Origin: a virus
Direction: 5' to 3' (one strand)
DNA: 64,000 bases
IMG/VR virus record: IMGVR_UViG_3300027749_000058
Coordinates: 46,936-110,935 of that record
How positions within the stretch are numbered: the stretch's first letter is position 1; every line of letters begins with the position of its first letter. Positions 7,058 through 12,006 of the stretch are shown one piece after another. Under the pieces are notes generated by a model. That model saw only the letters and a program-made list of their open reading frames with translations. It searched no databases and had not been told where the DNA came from. Made by a program: the position numbers and the translations under genes.

Positions 7058-7157
7058 GGTTCGGTAGCTCAGCTGGATAGTAGCGACAGCCTTCTTGGTC
7101 TATATTTTAGTATTACCAAGAAGCTGTAGGTCATTGGTTCGAATCCAATCCGGATCA
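7058..7157 (+). tRNA. tRNA-Arg(UCU)-like gene with a 25-nt insertion after the anticodon
   Basis: GGTTCGG/CCGGATC acceptor; ACAGC-CTTCT-[7096-7120]-AA-GCTGT; T-arm ATTGG-TTCGAAT-CCAAT. Confidence 0.75.
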
Positions 7158-7208
7158 CAAATGGAAATAATATTTTTTTAATCCATTTAAATATATTTAT
7201 TATCTTTG

Positions 7209-7294
7209 TTTTGTGATTGAAGACAACCTATTTAGATACAATCGGTCACAAAATTACGGGAAGGGACAACAATTTAGATACCCTTCCTGTTTTA
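7209..7294 (+). ncRNA. candidate two-hairpin sRNA with a repeated loop motif
   Basis: Follows TATCTTTG (7201-7208); two stems with G-U pairs; both loops carry ACAAC..ATTTAGATA; ends in a T-run. Confidence 0.5.
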
Positions 7295-7699
7295 TTTACT
7301 CAAAATGAATTGGTCTTGAGCAGTTAATAATCCAAAATTTTCAGATGATGGAAAAATTGTAAGAATAAATAATGACCAGTAATTGTCGTCAACTATTGTC
7401 GCAAGAATCGCACAATCAATTTTTGATTCTTTGTCTTTAATGGCAAACTTATCTCCATCAATAATATATCCATTAATAATTGCTTCCGCAATATCTCTTT
7501 TATATTTTTCAATTACATCAATAATTTCTTGATTGGAAATAATTCTATTACTCAGTGCTTCCCTACCAAGATTTGACCTATCTCTTGTGTGTTTTGATGT
7601 AGAAACGTCAAATCCAAATGTTACTTGGAATGTATCAGACATTTGGGCAATTTTTCTTTCAAGTAATAGTGTTTCTTTAATAAGTTTTCTGAGGTTCAT
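7292..7699 (-). CDS. hypothetical protein, probable head-packaged protein
   Basis: MNLRKLIKETLLLE leader; TATTTAT 4 nt upstream. Confidence 0.65.
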   Translation of the reverse strand: MNLRKLIKETLLLERKIAQMSDTFQVTFGFDVSTSKHTRDRSNLGREALSNRIISNQEIIDVIEKYKRDIAEAIINGYIIDGDKFAIKDKESKIDCAILATIVDDNYWSLFILTIFPSSENFGLLTAQDQFILSK

Positions 7700-7757
7700 A
7701 AAAATAAATATTTGACAATTCGAAGATATTCCCTATCTTTGATATAATTATAATAAC

Positions 7758-7856
7758 ATGAACACTACAATGCGTCATATAGTCTTTAGTAAACAACAAG
7801 AAACTTGTTGGTATCAGATTATGCCTTGTAGTTCAGATGGTGATTCTCAAAATTAG
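7758..7856 (+). CDS. putative leader peptide (MNTTMRHIVFSKQQETCWYQIMPCSSDGDSQN)
   Basis: Lies between a TATCTTTG box and a strong terminator at the head of the main tRNA array. Confidence 0.45.
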   Translation: MNTTMRHIVFSKQQETCWYQIMPCSSDGDSQN

Positions 7857-7882
7857 TTAATTCCTGATGTATATTTATATAC

Positions 7883-7925
7883 AAACCCTGAACGACAGAA
7901 ATGAAGTTCGGGGTTTTTTATTTTT
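7883..7925 (+). terminator. intrinsic terminator or attenuator upstream of the tRNA array
   Basis: AAACCCTGAAC / GTTCGGGGTTT stem followed by T-runs. Confidence 0.7.
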
Positions 7926-7939
7926 GGCTCTTTGAAATA
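7926..7939 (+). promoter_or_regulatory. boxA-like antitermination element
   Basis: GGCTCTTTGAAATA resembles rrn boxA TGCTCTTTAACA; a similar GTTCTTTAACA precedes tmRNA. Confidence 0.5.
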
Positions 7940-7961
7940 TTGGTTGTATATTTGTAAAAAT

Positions 7962-8013
7962 GATCCTGTTGACTATCGGTTAGGTCATCAGGTTCCGATT
8001 CCTACAAGGACTA
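7962..8013 (+). pseudogene. tRNA remnant (Glu/Asp-type D arm, anticodon region deleted)
   Basis: GAC-TATCGGTTAG-GTC D arm joined to a degenerate GGTTCCGATTCC T-arm and AGGACTA end. Confidence 0.55.
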
Positions 8014-8027
8014 CAAAAATTAAAATT

Positions 8028-8243
8028 ATGAAATACGTTTTTAGAGGTCATGTTGTGTTTGAATACAAACCAAATGATAAAAGAGATAAAGTGGTTCAAG
8101 GTAAGATTCATGATGCAATTCCAGCATTTGATTTTTGTCATATGATTCCTGAGGACTATAAATTGTTAGCAAAATTTTTCAACACAGTTTATAGGCATAT
8201 TCAAGGAGAAGATGTACCTTTGGAAGATATAGAAGTGTATTAA
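8028..8243 (+). CDS. hypothetical protein
   Basis: ATG at 8028 (MKYVFRGHVV); the longer track ORF overlaps the tRNA remnant. Confidence 0.6.
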   Translation: MKYVFRGHVVFEYKPNDKRDKVVQGKIHDAIPAFDFCHMIPEDYKLLAKFFNTVYRHIQGEDVPLEDIEVY

Positions 8244-8244
8244 T

Positions 8245-8317
8245 GGTGCTCAAGCTAACTTGGTAGAAGCGAAAGACTGAAAATCTTTAGGACTCGGCTC
8301 GGAACCGAGGAGTACCA
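8245..8317 (+). tRNA. tRNA-Phe(GAA)
   Basis: AAAGA-CTGAAAA-TCTTT anticodon arm; atypical T-loop CTCGGAA. Confidence 0.88.
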
Positions 8318-8388
8318 CGGAGTCCCGAAATAACGGGAAACCCCCACTCCCATATGGCAGCCAGTCCGTTAACCTGGTGAAGTGGGGT
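8317..8388 (+). ncRNA. unassigned structured RNA abutting the tRNA-Phe 3' end
   Basis: TCCCG/CGGGA hairpin; CCCCACT/AGTGGGG stem enclosing a CCAG/CTGG hairpin; loop TCCGT complementary to 5' ACGGA. Confidence 0.5.
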
Positions 8389-8392
8389 AGGA

Positions 8393-10120: not shown

Positions 10121-10317
10121 CGTTCCGAAACACAACAACGGATAATATGCCCAATATGATGAGAAATGGAGTGATGTCCGTATGGGAACCTACATTGGAG
10201 TGGATGGGGATAACTTCAGGGAATATCATCCCGACCTCGTTAGGACGAAATGATTATTTCTAACTTGCCTTAGCAAGGACAGCCAAGATACCTGTAGTTG
10301 AATAAAATAGGGTATCA
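10121..10317 (+). ncRNA. unassigned ~200-nt structured RNA between tRNA(CAU) and tRNA-Gln
   Basis: GC-richer, no ORF in the track; hairpins TCCG/CGGA, GGGAT/ATCCC, TCGT/ACGA, GATACCT/GGGTATC; long-range AGAAAT/ATTTCT. Confidence 0.5.
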
Positions 10318-10322
10318 TTTAT

Positions 10323-10393
10323 TGTATAGTAGTGTAACGGTAACACAACTTCCTTTGACGAAGTTATTTTAAGTTCGAATCTTAACTATACAT
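10323..10393 (+). tRNA. tRNA-Gln(UUG)
   Basis: ACTTC-CTTTGAC-GAAGT; U1-A72. Confidence 0.88.
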
Positions 10394-10395
10394 CA

Positions 10396-11040
10396 ATGAA
10401 GAAAGAAATTATAAATAAGGATTTCAGAGAATGTGAAATACCTGAAGGATTGGTTATTACCGATCCACCATACAATCAAGGATATTCATATAATGAATAT
10501 AAAGACACCATGAGTGAAGAGGATTATATTGAGTTACTCTCAAAAATCCCAACACCATGTGTAATAATTCATTATCCCGAAGAAACCATTAATTTACTAC
10601 CAAAAGCATTAAAGGCAAAATGCGAACAAGTAGTTTGTTGGGTGTATAACTCAAATACGGGAAAACAAAGTAGATTGATTAGTTGGTGGGGATGTAAACC
10701 TGATTTTAGGAAGGTTAGACAAGAATATAAAAACTTGAAAGATAAAAGAATTCAAGCCAGAATTGCTGAAGGTAAAACAGGTGCTAAACTATATGATTGG
10801 TGGGAGATAAATCAGGTAAAGAATGTTAGTAAAGAAAAAACTGAACATCCTTGTCAAATACCTGAAGAATTGATTAAAAAAATTATATTAACCACCGCCA
10901 AAGAAAATCAAACAATAATTGATGTTTTTGGAGGTAGCGGAACAACAAGTAAAGTTGCAAGTGATTTGGGATTTGATTCAATCAGTTATGAGATTGATGA
11001 AAAGTATTGTGAAATCATTAAAAATAGACTAAATAAATAG
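10396..11040 (+). CDS. orphan DNA methyltransferase (N6-A/N4-C, beta class)
   Basis: TDPPY followed by HPCQIP and DVFGGSGTT. Confidence 0.93.
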   Translation: MKKEIINKDFRECEIPEGLVITDPPYNQGYSYNEYKDTMSEEDYIELLSKIPTPCVIIHYPEETINLLPKALKAKCEQVVCWVYNSNTGKQSRLISWWGCKPDFRKVRQEYKNLKDKRIQARIAEGKTGAKLYDWWEINQVKNVSKEKTEHPCQIPEELIKKIILTTAKENQTIIDVFGGSGTTSKVASDLGFDSISYEIDEKYCEIIKNRLNK

Positions 11041-11046
11041 TTTTAT

Positions 11047-11118
11047 GGTGTTTGAAGCATTAAGGTGATGCACTAGTTTGTGGAGCTAGAAAAGACGGGT
11101 CGGTACCGTCCTTACACC
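11047..11118 (+). tRNA. tRNA-His(GUG)
   Basis: G-1:C73; CTAGT-TTGTGGA-GCTAG; T-loop GTCGGTA; two U-U mismatches in the acceptor stem. Confidence 0.8.
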
Positions 11119-11154
11119 CATATTTTTTTTCTTAGTATCATACTATTTATATGT

Positions 11155-11616
11155 ATGGAAAAAAAAGTAACTCTAACCAAAGAACAATTATTCAAGGTGA
11201 TGAACTTGAATGAGGCTGAAAATAAAAAAGAAAAAAATGAAACATCTGATGTTGTTGATATGATTGCAACATTACTTCATTCAAGAAGCCAAACTCATAT
11301 TTTTCATTGGCAAACAAAATCACAATCATCATTTGCTGAACATATGGCATTAGGAACTTATTATGATGAAATTGTTGGACTAATTGATGGTATTGTTGAA
11401 AGTTATCAAGGAAAATATGAAATAATTACAGGATACAAAACAGTTGAAATGGTTGATTACAAATCAACAGAACAATTAATAAGTTACTTTAGAGAATTAG
11501 ATAGCAATATTGAAAAAAATAGAAAGGGGATTAAAGAATCTTATATTCAAAATCAAATTGACGGACTTCAAGAGTTAATTTTTTCTACATTATATAAATT
11601 AAGATTCTTGAAATAA
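11155..11616 (+). CDS. ferritin/Dps-like phage protein (DUF5856-like)
   Basis: HIFHWQT..SFAEHMALGTYYD..IDGIVESYQG..TLYKLRFL; N-terminal LTKEQL..LNE leader. Confidence 0.75.
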   Translation: MEKKVTLTKEQLFKVMNLNEAENKKEKNETSDVVDMIATLLHSRSQTHIFHWQTKSQSSFAEHMALGTYYDEIVGLIDGIVESYQGKYEIITGYKTVEMVDYKSTEQLISYFRELDSNIEKNRKGIKESYIQNQIDGLQELIFSTLYKLRFLK

Positions 11617-11637
11617 GAATTAATTATTAAATAATTG

Positions 11638-11674
11638 AAAATCCCTCTAAATTAGTTGTTTAGGGGGATTTTTT
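11638..11674 (+). terminator. intrinsic terminator
   Basis: AAAATCCCTCTAAA / TTTAGGGGGATTTT stem with T-run. Confidence 0.75.
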
Positions 11675-11688
11675 ATATATTTGTATTC

Positions 11689-11839
11689 AGAGAGACAGAG
11701 AAGTTCTACAGAAGTAGATAGGGCGTCGCATAATATCGGGGTGGAACACAGGGTTCCTATACGTGATGTAACCCGAGCCGTAAACCATTGTTATCCTTGT
11801 GATGACCGAATAAATAATCGGTTGGTTCTGTCTCTTTTT
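11689..11839 (+). ncRNA. unassigned ~150-nt multibranched RNA
   Basis: Starts 5 nt after TATATTTG; closing stem AGAGACAGAG/TTCTGTCTCT; inner TCTAC/GTAGA, TCGGG/CCCGA, GGAAC/GTTCC, ACCGA/TCGGT. Confidence 0.6.
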
Positions 11840-11841
11840 AT

Positions 11842-11913
11842 TGAAACGTAATTCAGTGGTAGAATGCTATTCTGATACGATAGTCGTCGGCGGTTCGAAT
11901 CCGCCCGTTTCAA
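11842..11913 (+). tRNA. tRNA-Ile(GAU)
   Basis: CTATT-CTGATAC-GATAG; GGCGG-TTCGAAT-CCGCC. Confidence 0.9.
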
Positions 11914-11918
11914 CATTC

Positions 11919-12006
11919 GGAGAGTTGGGTGAGTGGTTTAAACCAGCAGTTTGCTAAACTGCCGTATCTCTAAAGGATACCATTAGTTCAAATCTAATAC
12001 TCTCCG
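11919..12006 (+). tRNA. tRNA-Ser(GCU)
   Basis: GCAGT-TTGCTAA-ACTGC; long variable arm; G73. Confidence 0.93.

What the first reader, a model, noticed from the sequence alone, without database searches (positions are those of the whole stretch)
7058..12006. tRNA array that may act as a processing platform for anticodon-masked tRNA mimics and cargo ncRNAs
Seen: within about 5 kb, 10 canonical tRNAs alternate with three tRNA-shaped RNAs whose acceptor and T arms are essentially intact but whose anticodon domain is masked or replaced (7058, 8393, 8568). At least five structured RNAs without an ORF assigned here (8317, 8496, 9743, 10121, 11689) sit within a few nt of tRNA or tRNA-like ends. Established: RNase P and RNase Z recognise the acceptor/T half, and host defences such as PrrC, VapC and PARIS cut tRNAs. 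Inference: host tRNA processing could release these cargo RNAs, and the mimics could act as decoys or scaffolds rather than decoders. This is my best candidate for an undescribed system here.
Basis: partly seen in the sequence, partly recalled or inferred. Interest (0 to 1): 0.85.

Follow-up and report, generated by a model that had tools for sequence, protein, structure and literature searches.

The report
Phage tRNA array carrying cargo RNAs
The tRNA gene cluster of an uncultured lake phage also encodes several conserved folded RNAs and three tRNA-shaped RNAs that cannot decode, placed so that the cell's tRNA-trimming enzymes would cut them out; phages T4 and T5 have this layout, but these RNA families are uncatalogued and their jobs are unknown.

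Summary
Window 7058-12006 lies in a 110,935-base IMG/VR phage record. It contains 9 ARAGORN tRNAs plus a weak tRNA-His, three tRNA-shaped non-decoders, and RNAs that abut tRNA ends.

Comparison with more than 300 related viral loci shows four real interstitial RNA families, none in Rfam:
- a 72-nt pseudoknot (8318-8389), found in 51 viral contigs. Among contexts with tRNA-Phe it is 95.6% identical, against 78.6% for that tRNA. In 29 of 31 contexts it starts right after a discriminator base.
- a 130-nt multi-pseudoknot RNA (9740-9873), found in at least 70 contigs. 18 of 32 pairs show compensatory changes (0 of 500 shuffles reach this).
- a His-Ile RNA (11690-11841).
- a Met-Gln RNA (10120-10322).

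The RNAs at 8393 and 8568 are tRNA "chassis" RNAs carrying foreign cores. This scan has found that very large phage family before, on other DNA. The RNA at 7058 is an intact tRNA-Arg(UCU) with a rare 25-nt insert that pairs with the anticodon. The elements at 8495 and 9957 have no homologues.

Release by tRNA processing is inferred from geometry and from the T4 (rnaC, rnaD) and T5 (RNA1, RNA2 and others) precedents. It is not shown. Decoy function is untested. I class this as a new variant of a known kind.

The parts
7058..7157 (+). tRNA-Arg(UCU) with a 25-nt insert (7096-7120) directly after the anticodon. The insert extends the anticodon stem into a continuous helix that pairs with the anticodon.
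   Evidence: Rfam tRNA 45.3 bits. ARAGORN -i: Arg(tct), intron 25 nt. Fold z = -3.9. L009 has an uninterrupted, near-identical tRNA. The insert occurs only in this record and one other contig.
8245..8317 (+). tRNA-Phe(GAA) with an unusual T loop (CUCGGAA); no encoded CCA
   Evidence: ARAGORN; Rfam 46.1 bits
8318..8389 (+). 72-nt pseudoknotted RNA. P1 8319-8323/8346-8350; P2 8324-8327/8334-8337; pseudoknot 8341-8345/8383-8387; P4 8360-8364/8374-8378, with an invariant loop and invariant flanks.
   Evidence: 37 of 37 BLAST hits are >= 89% identical. 51 IMG/VR contigs. Covariation. The divergent L185 copy has its pseudoknot swapped to ACACUC/GAGUGU. The junction is flush.
8393..8494 (+). tRNA-chassis RNA: acceptor stem and T arm, with one central arm (GUGG/CCAC) carrying a conserved branched core
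   Evidence: Rfam 26 bits, below the gathering score. 26 viral contigs. In 15 distinct sequences, 11 of 30 pairs show compensatory change. The same core also sits in AGUCAGG, GAUCAAG and CAUUAGG frames.
8495..8567 (+). Spacer that folds into a hairpin closed by a 10-bp stem; not conserved
   Evidence: z = -3.9. No homologue by BLAST or nhmmer. It is gained or lost together with 8393 in strain variants (joints 8389->8566).
8568..8650 (+). Minimal member of the AGUCAGG tRNA-Leu-type chassis family. The 31-nt core has no anticodon arm. The T stem has one extra U.
   Evidence: Fuzzy scan. Alignment A1: the L017/L022 orthologues have the anticodon stem capped by a GUAA tetraloop. The family is in more than 120 viral contigs. 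The extra U at 8638 is absent in part of the population (table 4).
8657..8730 (+). tRNA-Lys(UUU)
9218..9289 (+). tRNA-Cys(GCA)
9668..9738 (+). tRNA-Trp(CCA)
9740..9873 (+). About 130-nt multi-pseudoknot RNA. GAUUGG 9747-9752 pairs with CCAAUC 9822-9827. Two helices cross: 9758-9764/9790-9796 and 9772-9778/9806-9812. 3' hairpin 9831-9837/9857-9863. Possible GGUU 9743-9746 with AACC 9848-9851.
   Evidence: At least 70 viral contigs. CM R2 gives 83 hits, 50 distinct. 92.6% of cells paired; 18 of 32 pairs double-changed, 0 of 500 shuffles reach this. The crossing helix is 8 of 8 double-changed although it was not in the model.
9874..9955 (+). tRNA-Tyr(GUA)
9957..10044 (+). 88-nt spacer with three hairpins; specific to this genome
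   Evidence: z = -3.3. One partial nhmmer hit only. In relatives Tyr and Met are 5-6 nt apart.
10045..10118 (+). tRNA-Met(CAU)
10120..10322 (+). Met-Gln interstitial RNA. The 5' half is conserved, with three covarying hairpins.
   Evidence: nhmmer hits in L032, L036 and L162. A6: 8 of 14 pairs compensatory. The single-sequence fold is not significant.
10323..10393 (+). tRNA-Gln(UUG)
11047..11119 (+). tRNA-His(GUG) with G-1:C73, two U.U mismatches in the acceptor stem, and T loop GUCGGUA
   Evidence: Rfam 32.4 bits. The L044 homologue is called His. Fold z = -2.3.
11690..11841 (+). About 150-nt structured RNA closed by a long stem. Here it is the 5' leader of the Ile-Ser transcript, following terminator 11637-11673 and a TAnnTTTG box.
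   Evidence: z = -2.7. Terminator. Homologues lie exactly between His and Ile in L079, L080 and L084. 8 compensatory pairs.
11842..12006 (+). tRNA-Ile(GAU) and tRNA-Ser(GCU)

Best explanation
This is a phage tRNA operon cluster that also serves as an expression and processing platform for small stable RNAs.

Shown: genuine tRNAs, none with an encoded CCA, are interleaved with two kinds of RNA.
(i) Four conserved non-tRNA RNA families with covarying structure: the 72-nt pseudoknot, the 130-nt multi-pseudoknot RNA, the His-Ile RNA and the Met-Gln RNA.
(ii) tRNA 'chassis' RNAs (8393, 8568) that keep the acceptor stem, T arm and elbow but carry a foreign core in place of the anticodon arm.

Inferred: each tRNA-shaped unit is a cutting mark. 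Host RNase P cuts at the 5' end of the downstream unit, and a 3' endonuclease of the RNase Z type, or trimming, cuts after the upstream discriminator. The RNAs lying between the units are thereby released as discrete molecules of 70-200 nt. The chassis also gives its core tRNA-like ends and stability.

The released RNAs then most likely act in trans during infection, by binding a protein or another RNA. Their targets are unknown.

The tRNA-Arg with the 25-nt insert is most likely a recent insertion allele whose anticodon is unavailable, not a designed mimic.
For: - Register. In 29 of 31 distinct contexts a 5-bp T stem, 7-nt loop, 7-nt acceptor strand and discriminator end exactly at nucleotide 1 of the 72-nt RNA, and the next tRNA or chassis starts 3-4 nt after it.
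- Constraint. The 72-nt RNA averages 95.6% identity against 78.6% for the adjacent tRNA-Phe.
- Structure. Covariation supports the 72-nt RNA (plus the swapped pseudoknot in L185), the 9740 RNA (18 of 32 pairs, 0 of 500 shuffles), the 8393 RNA (11 of 30 pairs, frames exchanged around one core), the 11690 RNA and the 10120 RNA.
- Synteny. The 11690 RNA lies between His and Ile, and the 9740 RNA between Trp and Tyr, in dozens of contigs.
- Modularity. Strain variants in the source metagenome join units exactly at unit borders: 8389->8655, 8389->8566 and 7158->10044.
- Precedent. The T4 record has tRNA-Arg, then rnaD after 1 nt, then rnaC after 6 nt. The T5 record has RNAI, III, IV, 2H and 'tRNA-like' RNA1 and RNA2 among its tRNAs, all annotated as stable RNAs.
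- Host dependence. Two complete relatives encode no CCA-adding enzyme, so host tRNA maturation must be used.
Against: - No RNA 5' or 3' ends were observed. The RNA-library data are assembled contigs that may include DNA.
- The counts for the 72-nt RNA rest partly on pattern-selected loci, which inflates its apparent conservation.
- The 72-nt RNA has little sequence variation: only 2 column pairs show double changes in A2.
- Some chassis RNAs in relatives sit behind promoter-like AT boxes and may be primary transcripts that need no RNase P.
- Small protein genes, a terminator and promoter boxes split the region into several transcription units, so it is not one polycistron.
- The function of every cargo RNA is unknown.
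Confidence: 0.55

Rival explanations
1. The interstitial RNAs act in cis on their tRNA neighbours rather than as cargo. In particular, the 72-nt pseudoknot would be a self-cleaving or nuclease-guiding 3' trailer that makes the 3' end of the upstream tRNA. That would make it a functional analogue of the HDV-like theta ribozymes, but of a different fold.
For: It always starts 0-1 nt after a discriminator, mostly of tRNA-Phe. About 40 of its nucleotides are invariant, as in catalytic or binding cores. Theta ribozymes occupy this same position in phages of Bacteroidota (PMC10879173).
Against: The HDV topology is not met. The 5' strand of the pseudoknot lies after the first hairpin, not before it. 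The covarying pair C9/G18 contradicts an HDV-like refold. The junction before the 3' pseudoknot strand is GAA, with no cytosine. No ribozyme family scores even at E <= 5. The 3' side is just as precisely spaced, at 3-4 nt, which fits release as a free RNA. No cleavage data exist.
Confidence: 0.15
2. The tRNA-shaped non-decoders would be decoys or sponges for host tRNA-targeting defences (PrrC, VapC, PARIS and the like), or for tRNA-binding host enzymes.
For: The acceptor, T arm and elbow are strictly kept while the cores vary. The chassis family is widespread and multicopy: at least 10 copies in one contig and more than 120 contigs. Phage tRNA arrays are thought to counter tRNA cleavage (established knowledge).
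Against: Anticodon nucleases recognise the anticodon loop, which 8393 and 8568 lack and 7058 buries. Specific cores are conserved across different frames, which points to the core as the functional part rather than the frame. There is no link to any defence or anti-defence gene here. No binding or cleavage data exist.
Confidence: 0.1
3. The odd elements are decaying tRNA genes and neutral spacer DNA with fortuitous hairpins, with no function of their own.
For: The 8495 and 9957 spacers have no homologues. The insert in 7058 is known from only two records. 8568 has an imperfect T stem and no stable core fold (z = -0.6). The His gene is degenerate (two U.U mismatches and an odd T loop).
Against: This cannot explain RNAs that are more conserved than the neighbouring tRNAs. 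Nor does it explain compensatory changes in five families, presence in 26 to more than 120 viral contigs, or one core carried in four different frames.
Confidence: 0.08
4. The insert in tRNA-Arg(UCU) is a true intervening sequence. A double-strand-specific endonuclease would remove it and an RNA ligase would reseal the tRNA, giving a tRNA whose decoding is switched on after transcription.
For: Removing 7096-7120 restores the loop CUUCUAA. The two junctions lie in a perfect helix, offset by 2 bp, which is the geometry RNase III leaves (my reading). The exons are intact and nearly identical to the uninterrupted L009 gene. The same allele sits in two different flank backgrounds. Relatives encode a PF09414 ligase-like protein.
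Against: There are only two records. There is no bulge-helix-bulge motif, and 25 nt is far too short for a group I intron. No RtcB is present. The ligase match in the contig that carries the allele is below the cut-off (22.9 bits). No spliced form has been observed.
Confidence: 0.07

Closest known systems
Phage T4 rnaC (species 1) and rnaD (species 2) stable RNAs in the tRNA gene cluster
   Same: They are non-tRNA small stable RNAs encoded flush with a tRNA: tRNA-Arg 71173-71247, rnaD 71053-71171, rnaC 70908-71046 in NC_000866. Their function is still unknown (PMC9697503). The layout is the same as the 72-nt, 9740 and 11690 RNAs here.
   Different: There is no detectable sequence or structure homology: models R1 and R2 score at most 8.6 bits on the T4 region. 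The RNAs here are pseudoknotted families shared by dozens of uncultured lake phages.
Phage T5 stable RNAs RNAI, RNAIII, RNAIV, RNA2H and the 'tRNA-like' RNA1 and RNA2
   Same: They are interleaved with tRNAs, small ORFs and promoters in the T5 tRNA region and are annotated 'tRNA-like stable RNA with unknown functions' (NC_005859). T5 RNA1 has a Leu-type D arm and a T arm around a foreign core, like 8568 and 8393.
   Different: The acceptor stems and cores differ. R1 and R2 find nothing there. The AGUCAGG frame of the lake-phage family is not the T5 frame.
HDV-like theta ribozymes next to phage tRNAs (PMC10879173)
   Same: A structured RNA of about 60-70 nt directly downstream of a tRNA in phages of Bacteroidota, proposed to process the 3' trailer.
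   Different: The 72-nt RNA has a different strand order, has no cytosine in the junction where the catalytic C sits, and gives no Rfam HDV hit. Cleavage has not been tested.
tRNA-like domain of tmRNA
   Same: 8393 has the same topology: acceptor stem, T arm and one long central helix replacing the D and anticodon arms. Relatives of this phage carry real tmRNA genes.
   Different: It has no tag reading frame, no pseudoknot ring and no G3.U70, is only 102 nt long, and is not called tmRNA by ARAGORN or Rfam.
Engineered 'tRNA scaffold' for recombinant RNA (Ponchon and Dardel design; PMC3753655, listed)
   Same: A foreign RNA is inserted in place of the anticodon arm so that the cell processes and stabilises it like a tRNA. 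The chassis RNAs look like a natural version of this.
   Different: The chassis RNAs are natural, multicopy and hypervariable, with a Leu-type frame. Whether they accumulate has not been shown.
MHV68 tRNA-miRNA-encoded RNAs, plant tRNA-snoRNA genes, mitochondrial tRNA punctuation (own knowledge, not tested here)
   Same: tRNA-shaped units are used as processing signals to release neighbouring RNAs.
   Different: They belong to different domains of life, use different enzymes and carry different cargo.

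Membership tests
Canonical tRNA (Rfam RF00005) | Score at or above the gathering threshold of 29 bits | tested here: inconclusive
   7058: 45.3 bits (met). 11048: 32.4 bits (met). 8393: 26 bits (not met). 8568: no hit (not met)..
Canonical tRNA (Rfam RF00005) | 5-bp anticodon stem with a free 7-nt loop presenting an anticodon | tested here: not met
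   In 7058 the loop is interrupted by 25 nt that pair with it. In 8393 the central arm is a branched core. 8568 has no paired anticodon stem, and its orthologues have a GUAA tetraloop. The feature is met only for 11047 (His GUG).
HDV-like / theta ribozyme | Located within a few nt of a tRNA 3' end | tested here: met
   The 72-nt RNA starts at N74 in 29 of 31 contexts.
HDV-like / theta ribozyme | Nested double pseudoknot in the order P1-P2-P3-P1'-P4-P2', with a catalytic C at the first position of J4/2 | tested here: not met
   The order here is P1, hairpin, pseudoknot 5' strand, P1', hairpin, GAA, pseudoknot 3' strand. There is no C in the junction. The C9U/G18A covariation contradicts an HDV refold. 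No HDV family scores at E <= 5.
Phage tRNA-cluster stable RNAs (T4 rnaC/rnaD, T5 RNAI, III, IV, 2H) | Non-tRNA RNA gene flush with tRNA genes in a phage tRNA cluster | tested here: met
Phage tRNA-cluster stable RNAs (T4 rnaC/rnaD, T5 RNAI, III, IV, 2H) | Accumulates as a discrete stable RNA in infected cells | not testable with these tools
   Only contigs from RNA libraries were available.
Phage tRNA-cluster stable RNAs (T4 rnaC/rnaD, T5 RNAI, III, IV, 2H) | Sequence or structure homology to the T4 or T5 RNAs | tested here: not met
   R1 and R2 with filters off: best 7.3 and 8.6 bits, E >= 0.38.
AGUCAGG tRNA-Leu-type chassis RNA family (uncatalogued) | Acceptor AGUCAGG/CCUGACU, Leu-type D arm, T arm ACAGG-UUCGAAU-CCUGU, A73, and a non-anticodon core | tested here: met
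   8568: acceptor AGUCAGG/CCUGAUU, D arm GGCGGAAUGUUAGACGC, T arm with one extra U that is polymorphic in the population, A73, 31-nt core. The 8393 core occurs in this frame in L377-L389.
tmRNA | tRNA-like domain plus tag ORF and pseudoknots; G3.U70 | tested here: not met
   8393 has only the tRNA-like-domain topology. Position 3:70 is U-A. There is no ARAGORN or Rfam tmRNA call.
Archaeal/eukaryal tRNA intron (bulge-helix-bulge) or group I intron | Two 3-nt bulges separated by 4 bp at the splice sites, or a self-splicing core of 200 nt or more | tested here: not met
   Both junctions of the 7058 insert lie in an uninterrupted helix, and the insert is 25 nt.

The most novel reading that the evidence does not exclude
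The 72-nt pseudoknot that always begins at the nucleotide after a tRNA discriminator is a new class of self-cleaving RNA, or an RNA that recruits a nuclease. It would make the tRNA's 3' end and free itself. More broadly, these lake phages would run a toolkit of trans-acting RNAs that are expressed, cut out and stabilised entirely through tRNA mimicry. That toolkit would include chassis RNAs that LeuRS could charge without an anticodon.
Probability: 0.12. Interest if true: 0.85.

Novelty: new variant of a known kind. Interest (0 to 1): 0.6.

Why it matters
Stable non-tRNA RNAs in phage tRNA clusters have been known in T4 and T5 for about fifty years, and none has an assigned function. This window and its relatives give what those two phages could not. 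There are several large families, in 26 to more than 120 viral contigs each, with enough natural variation to define pseudoknotted structures, invariant cores and exact borders.

That turns an old curiosity into testable objects: a 72-nt RNA more conserved than the tRNA beside it, a 130-nt RNA with a crossing helix proven by covariation, and one conserved core carried in four interchangeable tRNA frames.

If the cores are the functional parts, phages use the host's tRNA maturation pathway as a general delivery system for small RNAs. That would bear on phage-host conflict over tRNAs, on annotation (ARAGORN with introns allowed mislabels these as intron-bearing tRNAs of scattered identities; it finds none of the three in the window without that option), and on RNA expression tools.

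Tried and rejected
- HDV-like refold of the 72-nt RNA. Rejected because of strand order, the missing catalytic C and the covariation.
- Hammerhead-like reading of the GAUGAGAAA block in 10120. The CUGAUGA core is incomplete and Rfam gives no hit.
- Kissing-loop dimer through GUUAAC in the P4 loop. The flanking loop positions vary without covariation, and only UUAA is fixed.
- Search for more divergent copies of the 72-nt RNA with model R1 in 88 loci. Nothing was found beyond L018 and L185.
- Bacterial genomes. The 22-nt core pattern gives 3 hits in 596 Gb, about the number expected by chance, and their flanks are unrelated.
- Metatranscriptomes. Three lake RNA runs hold small contigs on 8336-8388, 8393-8446, 9815-9866 and 10077-10320, but also on coding parts. 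Contigs cannot show ends or exclude DNA, so there is no verdict on expression or processing.
- Phage-encoded maturation enzymes. There is no PF01743, RtcB or PF09414 match in the 110-kb record, which is only 37% complete and so uninformative. In relatives, one contig has a CCA-enzyme-like gene, none has RtcB, and ligase-like genes are present. This is not enough to support splicing of the Arg insert.
- The insert as a repeated mobile hairpin. It is unique in the window and occurs in one other viral contig.
- Whole-region BLAST against 50,697 phage records. Only the tRNAs match.

Full report
**Setting.** The window is bases 46936-110935 of a 110,935-base IMG/VR virus record that CheckV rates 37% complete. 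Relatives recovered through two proteins of the array reach about 295-320 kb. This is therefore a fragment of a jumbo phage from lake metagenomes. Boxes of the TAnnTTTG type before the RNA genes suggest a Bacteroidota host; that is my reading of the sequence.

**The observation.**
- ARAGORN finds nine canonical tRNAs between 7058 and 12006.
- Rfam adds 11048-11118 at 32.4 bits. By hand it is tRNA-His(GUG) with the His-specific G-1:C73 pair, two U.U mismatches and an odd T loop. Its L044 homologue is called His.
- Rfam also scores 7058-7157 as tRNA (45.3 bits) and 8393-8494 just under threshold (26 bits).
- No other Rfam family comes near its threshold, even at E <= 5. In nine related loci only tRNA and tmRNA match.
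- None of the tRNAs encodes CCA.

**The tRNA-Arg at 7058.**
- With introns allowed, ARAGORN reads tRNA-Arg(UCU) with 25 extra nucleotides (7096-7120) directly after the anticodon. Removing them restores the loop CUUCUAA.
- The insert pairs with the anticodon and continues the anticodon stem as an uninterrupted helix.
- L009 carries the same tRNA without the insert. L010, its close relative, carries it with a 26-nt version.
- The insert occurs in only one other IMG/VR contig and nowhere else in the window.
- It has no bulge-helix-bulge motif and is far too short for a group I intron.
- I read it as a recent insertion allele. Splicing by a double-strand nuclease plus a ligase is possible on geometry but unsupported.

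**The 72-nt RNA (8318-8389).**
- In loci fetched through neighbouring proteins, that is without selecting on the RNA, all 37 BLAST hits are 89-99% identical.
- A 22-nt core pattern finds it in 51 viral contigs. In 596 Gb of bacterial genomes the pattern gives only chance-like hits with unrelated flanks.
- In 29 of 31 distinct contexts a T stem, T loop, acceptor strand and discriminator end exactly at its first base.
  - The upstream unit is mostly tRNA-Phe, of several different sequences, and sometimes a chassis RNA.
  - A tRNA (Lys, Ile) or a chassis RNA follows 3-4 nt after its end.
- Among contexts with tRNA-Phe it averages 95.6% identity, against 78.6% for the tRNA. Part of that sample was selected by pattern.
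- The structure is an H-type pseudoknot:
  - P1 GGAGU/ACUCC becomes GAAGU/ACUUC in L018.
  - The dispensable hairpin CCCG/CGGG is CCUG/CAGG in nine sequences and absent in L185.
  - The pseudoknot CCCCC/GGGG is ACACUC/GAGUGU in L185.
  - The P4 hairpin and its flanks, AUAUGGCA and GAAG, are invariant.
  - These points rest.
- It is not HDV-like. The strand order differs and the junction that should hold the catalytic C reads GAA.
- Model R1 finds no further copies in 88 loci and nothing in the T4 or T5 tRNA regions.

**The 130-nt RNA (9740-9873).**
- It lies between tRNA-Trp and tRNA-Tyr in dozens of loci and ends 0-6 nt before Tyr.
- A two-block pattern finds it in 70 viral contigs.
- Model R2 aligns 83 copies, 50 of them distinct, including a divergent tandem paralogue in some phages.
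- On that alignment 92.6% of cells pair and 18 of 32 pairs show changes on both sides. The shuffles give a mean of 11.6, and none of 500 reaches 18.
- The helix at columns 21-28/68-75 crosses helix 37-44/96-103. It is double-changed at 8 of 8 pairs, although it was not part of the model used for the alignment.
- This is a well-supported pseudoknotted RNA absent from Rfam.

**The other interstitial RNAs.**
- The 11690-11841 RNA has homologues that fill exactly the gap between tRNA-His and tRNA-Ile in L079, L080 and L084.
  - They show eight compensatory pairs around a nearly invariant core.
  - In the window a DUF5856 gene with its terminator has been inserted upstream. The RNA now starts a new transcript behind a promoter box.
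- The 10120-10322 RNA is conserved in its 5' half in L032, L036 and L162, with three covarying hairpins.
- The 8495 hairpin and the 9957 spacer have no homologues. I treat them as spacers.

**The tRNA-shaped RNAs at 8393 and 8568.**
- 8568 has the acceptor AGUCAGG, a Leu-type D arm and the T arm ACAGG-UUCGAAU-CCUGU, here with one extra U. Part of the source population lacks that U.
- Its orthologues in L017 and L022 cap the anticodon stem with a GUAA tetraloop.
- The same frame recurs in related contigs with cores of 20 to more than 250 nt.
  - There are 64 unique non-canonical units in the first loci, at least 10 of them in one contig.
  - From those come 119 unique units, of which ARAGORN rejects 91 and gives the rest scattered identities.
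- The phages' real tRNA-Leu genes use other acceptor stems.
- 8393 looked like a separate type, but it is not.
  - Its conserved core occurs in 26 viral contigs.
  - That core sits inside four different frames: UGUUAAG, AGUCAGG, GAUCAAG and CAUUAGG.
  - 11 of 30 pairs are compensatory, mostly in the acceptor and T stems.
- So the core is the conserved cargo and the tRNA frame is exchangeable. Earlier notes of this scan describe the same chassis family on many other genomes.

**How it most likely works.**
- Shown: the register of the units, their conservation, their structures, and the loss or gain of whole units at unit borders in strain variants (joints 8389->8655, 8389->8566, 7158->10044).
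- Inferred: RNase P and a 3' endonuclease cut at each tRNA-shaped unit and so release the RNAs in between, and the chassis gives its core tRNA-like maturation and stability.
- Two complete relatives lack a CCA-adding enzyme. This fits reliance on the host pathway.
- RNA-library contigs overlap several of the elements but cannot show ends.

**Comparison with what is known.**
- The T4 record annotates rnaD one nucleotide after tRNA-Arg, and rnaC six nucleotides further on.
- The T5 record annotates six stable RNAs, two of them 'tRNA-like', among its tRNAs. T5 RNA1 has a Leu-type D arm and a T arm around a foreign core.
- Their functions are still unknown (PMC9697503).
- The layout is therefore known. 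The families here are new and far better sampled. They are not detectably homologous to the T4 or T5 RNAs.
- Theta ribozymes share the position of the 72-nt RNA but not its fold.

**Verdict.** The 'processing platform for cargo RNAs' reading is supported by anatomy and precedent but not by RNA data. The decoy reading is untested and weak for anticodon nucleases.

Noticed in passing
window 7712-7931: A promoter-like site (TTGACA, 16 nt, TATCTT), a 32-codon ORF (7758-7856) and a terminator hairpin with a U run (about 7887-7920) precede ORF 7932-8243 and tRNA-Phe. The block has BLAST hits in 48 related loci. Another note of this scan reads it as a leader-peptide attenuator.
   Followed up: no
window 7200-7300 (+): A TAnnTTTG-type box (TTATCTTTG, about 7200) is followed by about 85 nt that end in the hairpin GGGAAGGG...CCCUUCC plus a U run. 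This may be a small RNA gene overlapping the 3' end of the minus-strand ORF 7292-7699. nhmmer gives weak hits in 21 loci.
   Followed up: partly
L031:5522-5652, L093:3648-3778, L160:3740-3870(-), L168:2322-2452(-): Some relatives carry a second, divergent copy (about 62 bits) of the 130-nt RNA directly upstream of the main copy. This tandem paralogue explains the 135-nt 'gap' after tRNA-Trp in those loci.
   Followed up: partly
L014, L154, L162, L164, L169, L171, L172, L190 (downstream of the 72-nt RNA); L009/L010 (upstream): A third tRNA-shaped family has the D arm replaced by the hairpin GUAAUG(A/C)GGGAUGGU.CCC. It often follows the 72-nt RNA. It is absent from the window.
   Followed up: no
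L012:13340-13748(-), L017:12937-13337(-), L019:14710-15100(-), L046, L100, L131: Relatives encode a tmRNA about 5 kb downstream of the DUF5856 gene. Neither ARAGORN nor Rfam calls one in this window.
   Followed up: no
window 8389-8655, 8389-8566, 7158-10044, 9873-10395, 11120-11919: Contigs of the probable source metagenome join these points directly. Co-occurring strains therefore differ by whole tRNA or RNA units, like cassettes.
   Followed up: partly
L086:9016-9186, L012:7449-7608, L194:6256-6405: A G-rich core (ACGCACCCUCC.GUCUCGGGGGCGGGG ... GGGGUAGACCACCAGC.UGCAAGC) is shared by chassis RNAs with three different frames. This is another conserved cargo.
   Followed up: no
window 8747-8980: A 77-aa ORF between tRNA-Lys and tRNA-Cys has no Pfam or PHROG match, but tblastn finds it in 148 related viral stretches. 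It is a conserved small protein embedded in the tRNA array, as in T5.
   Followed up: partly
window 8245-8317: The T loop of tRNA-Phe reads CUCGGAA instead of UUCGAAU. The Phe genes of relatives have normal loops.
   Followed up: no
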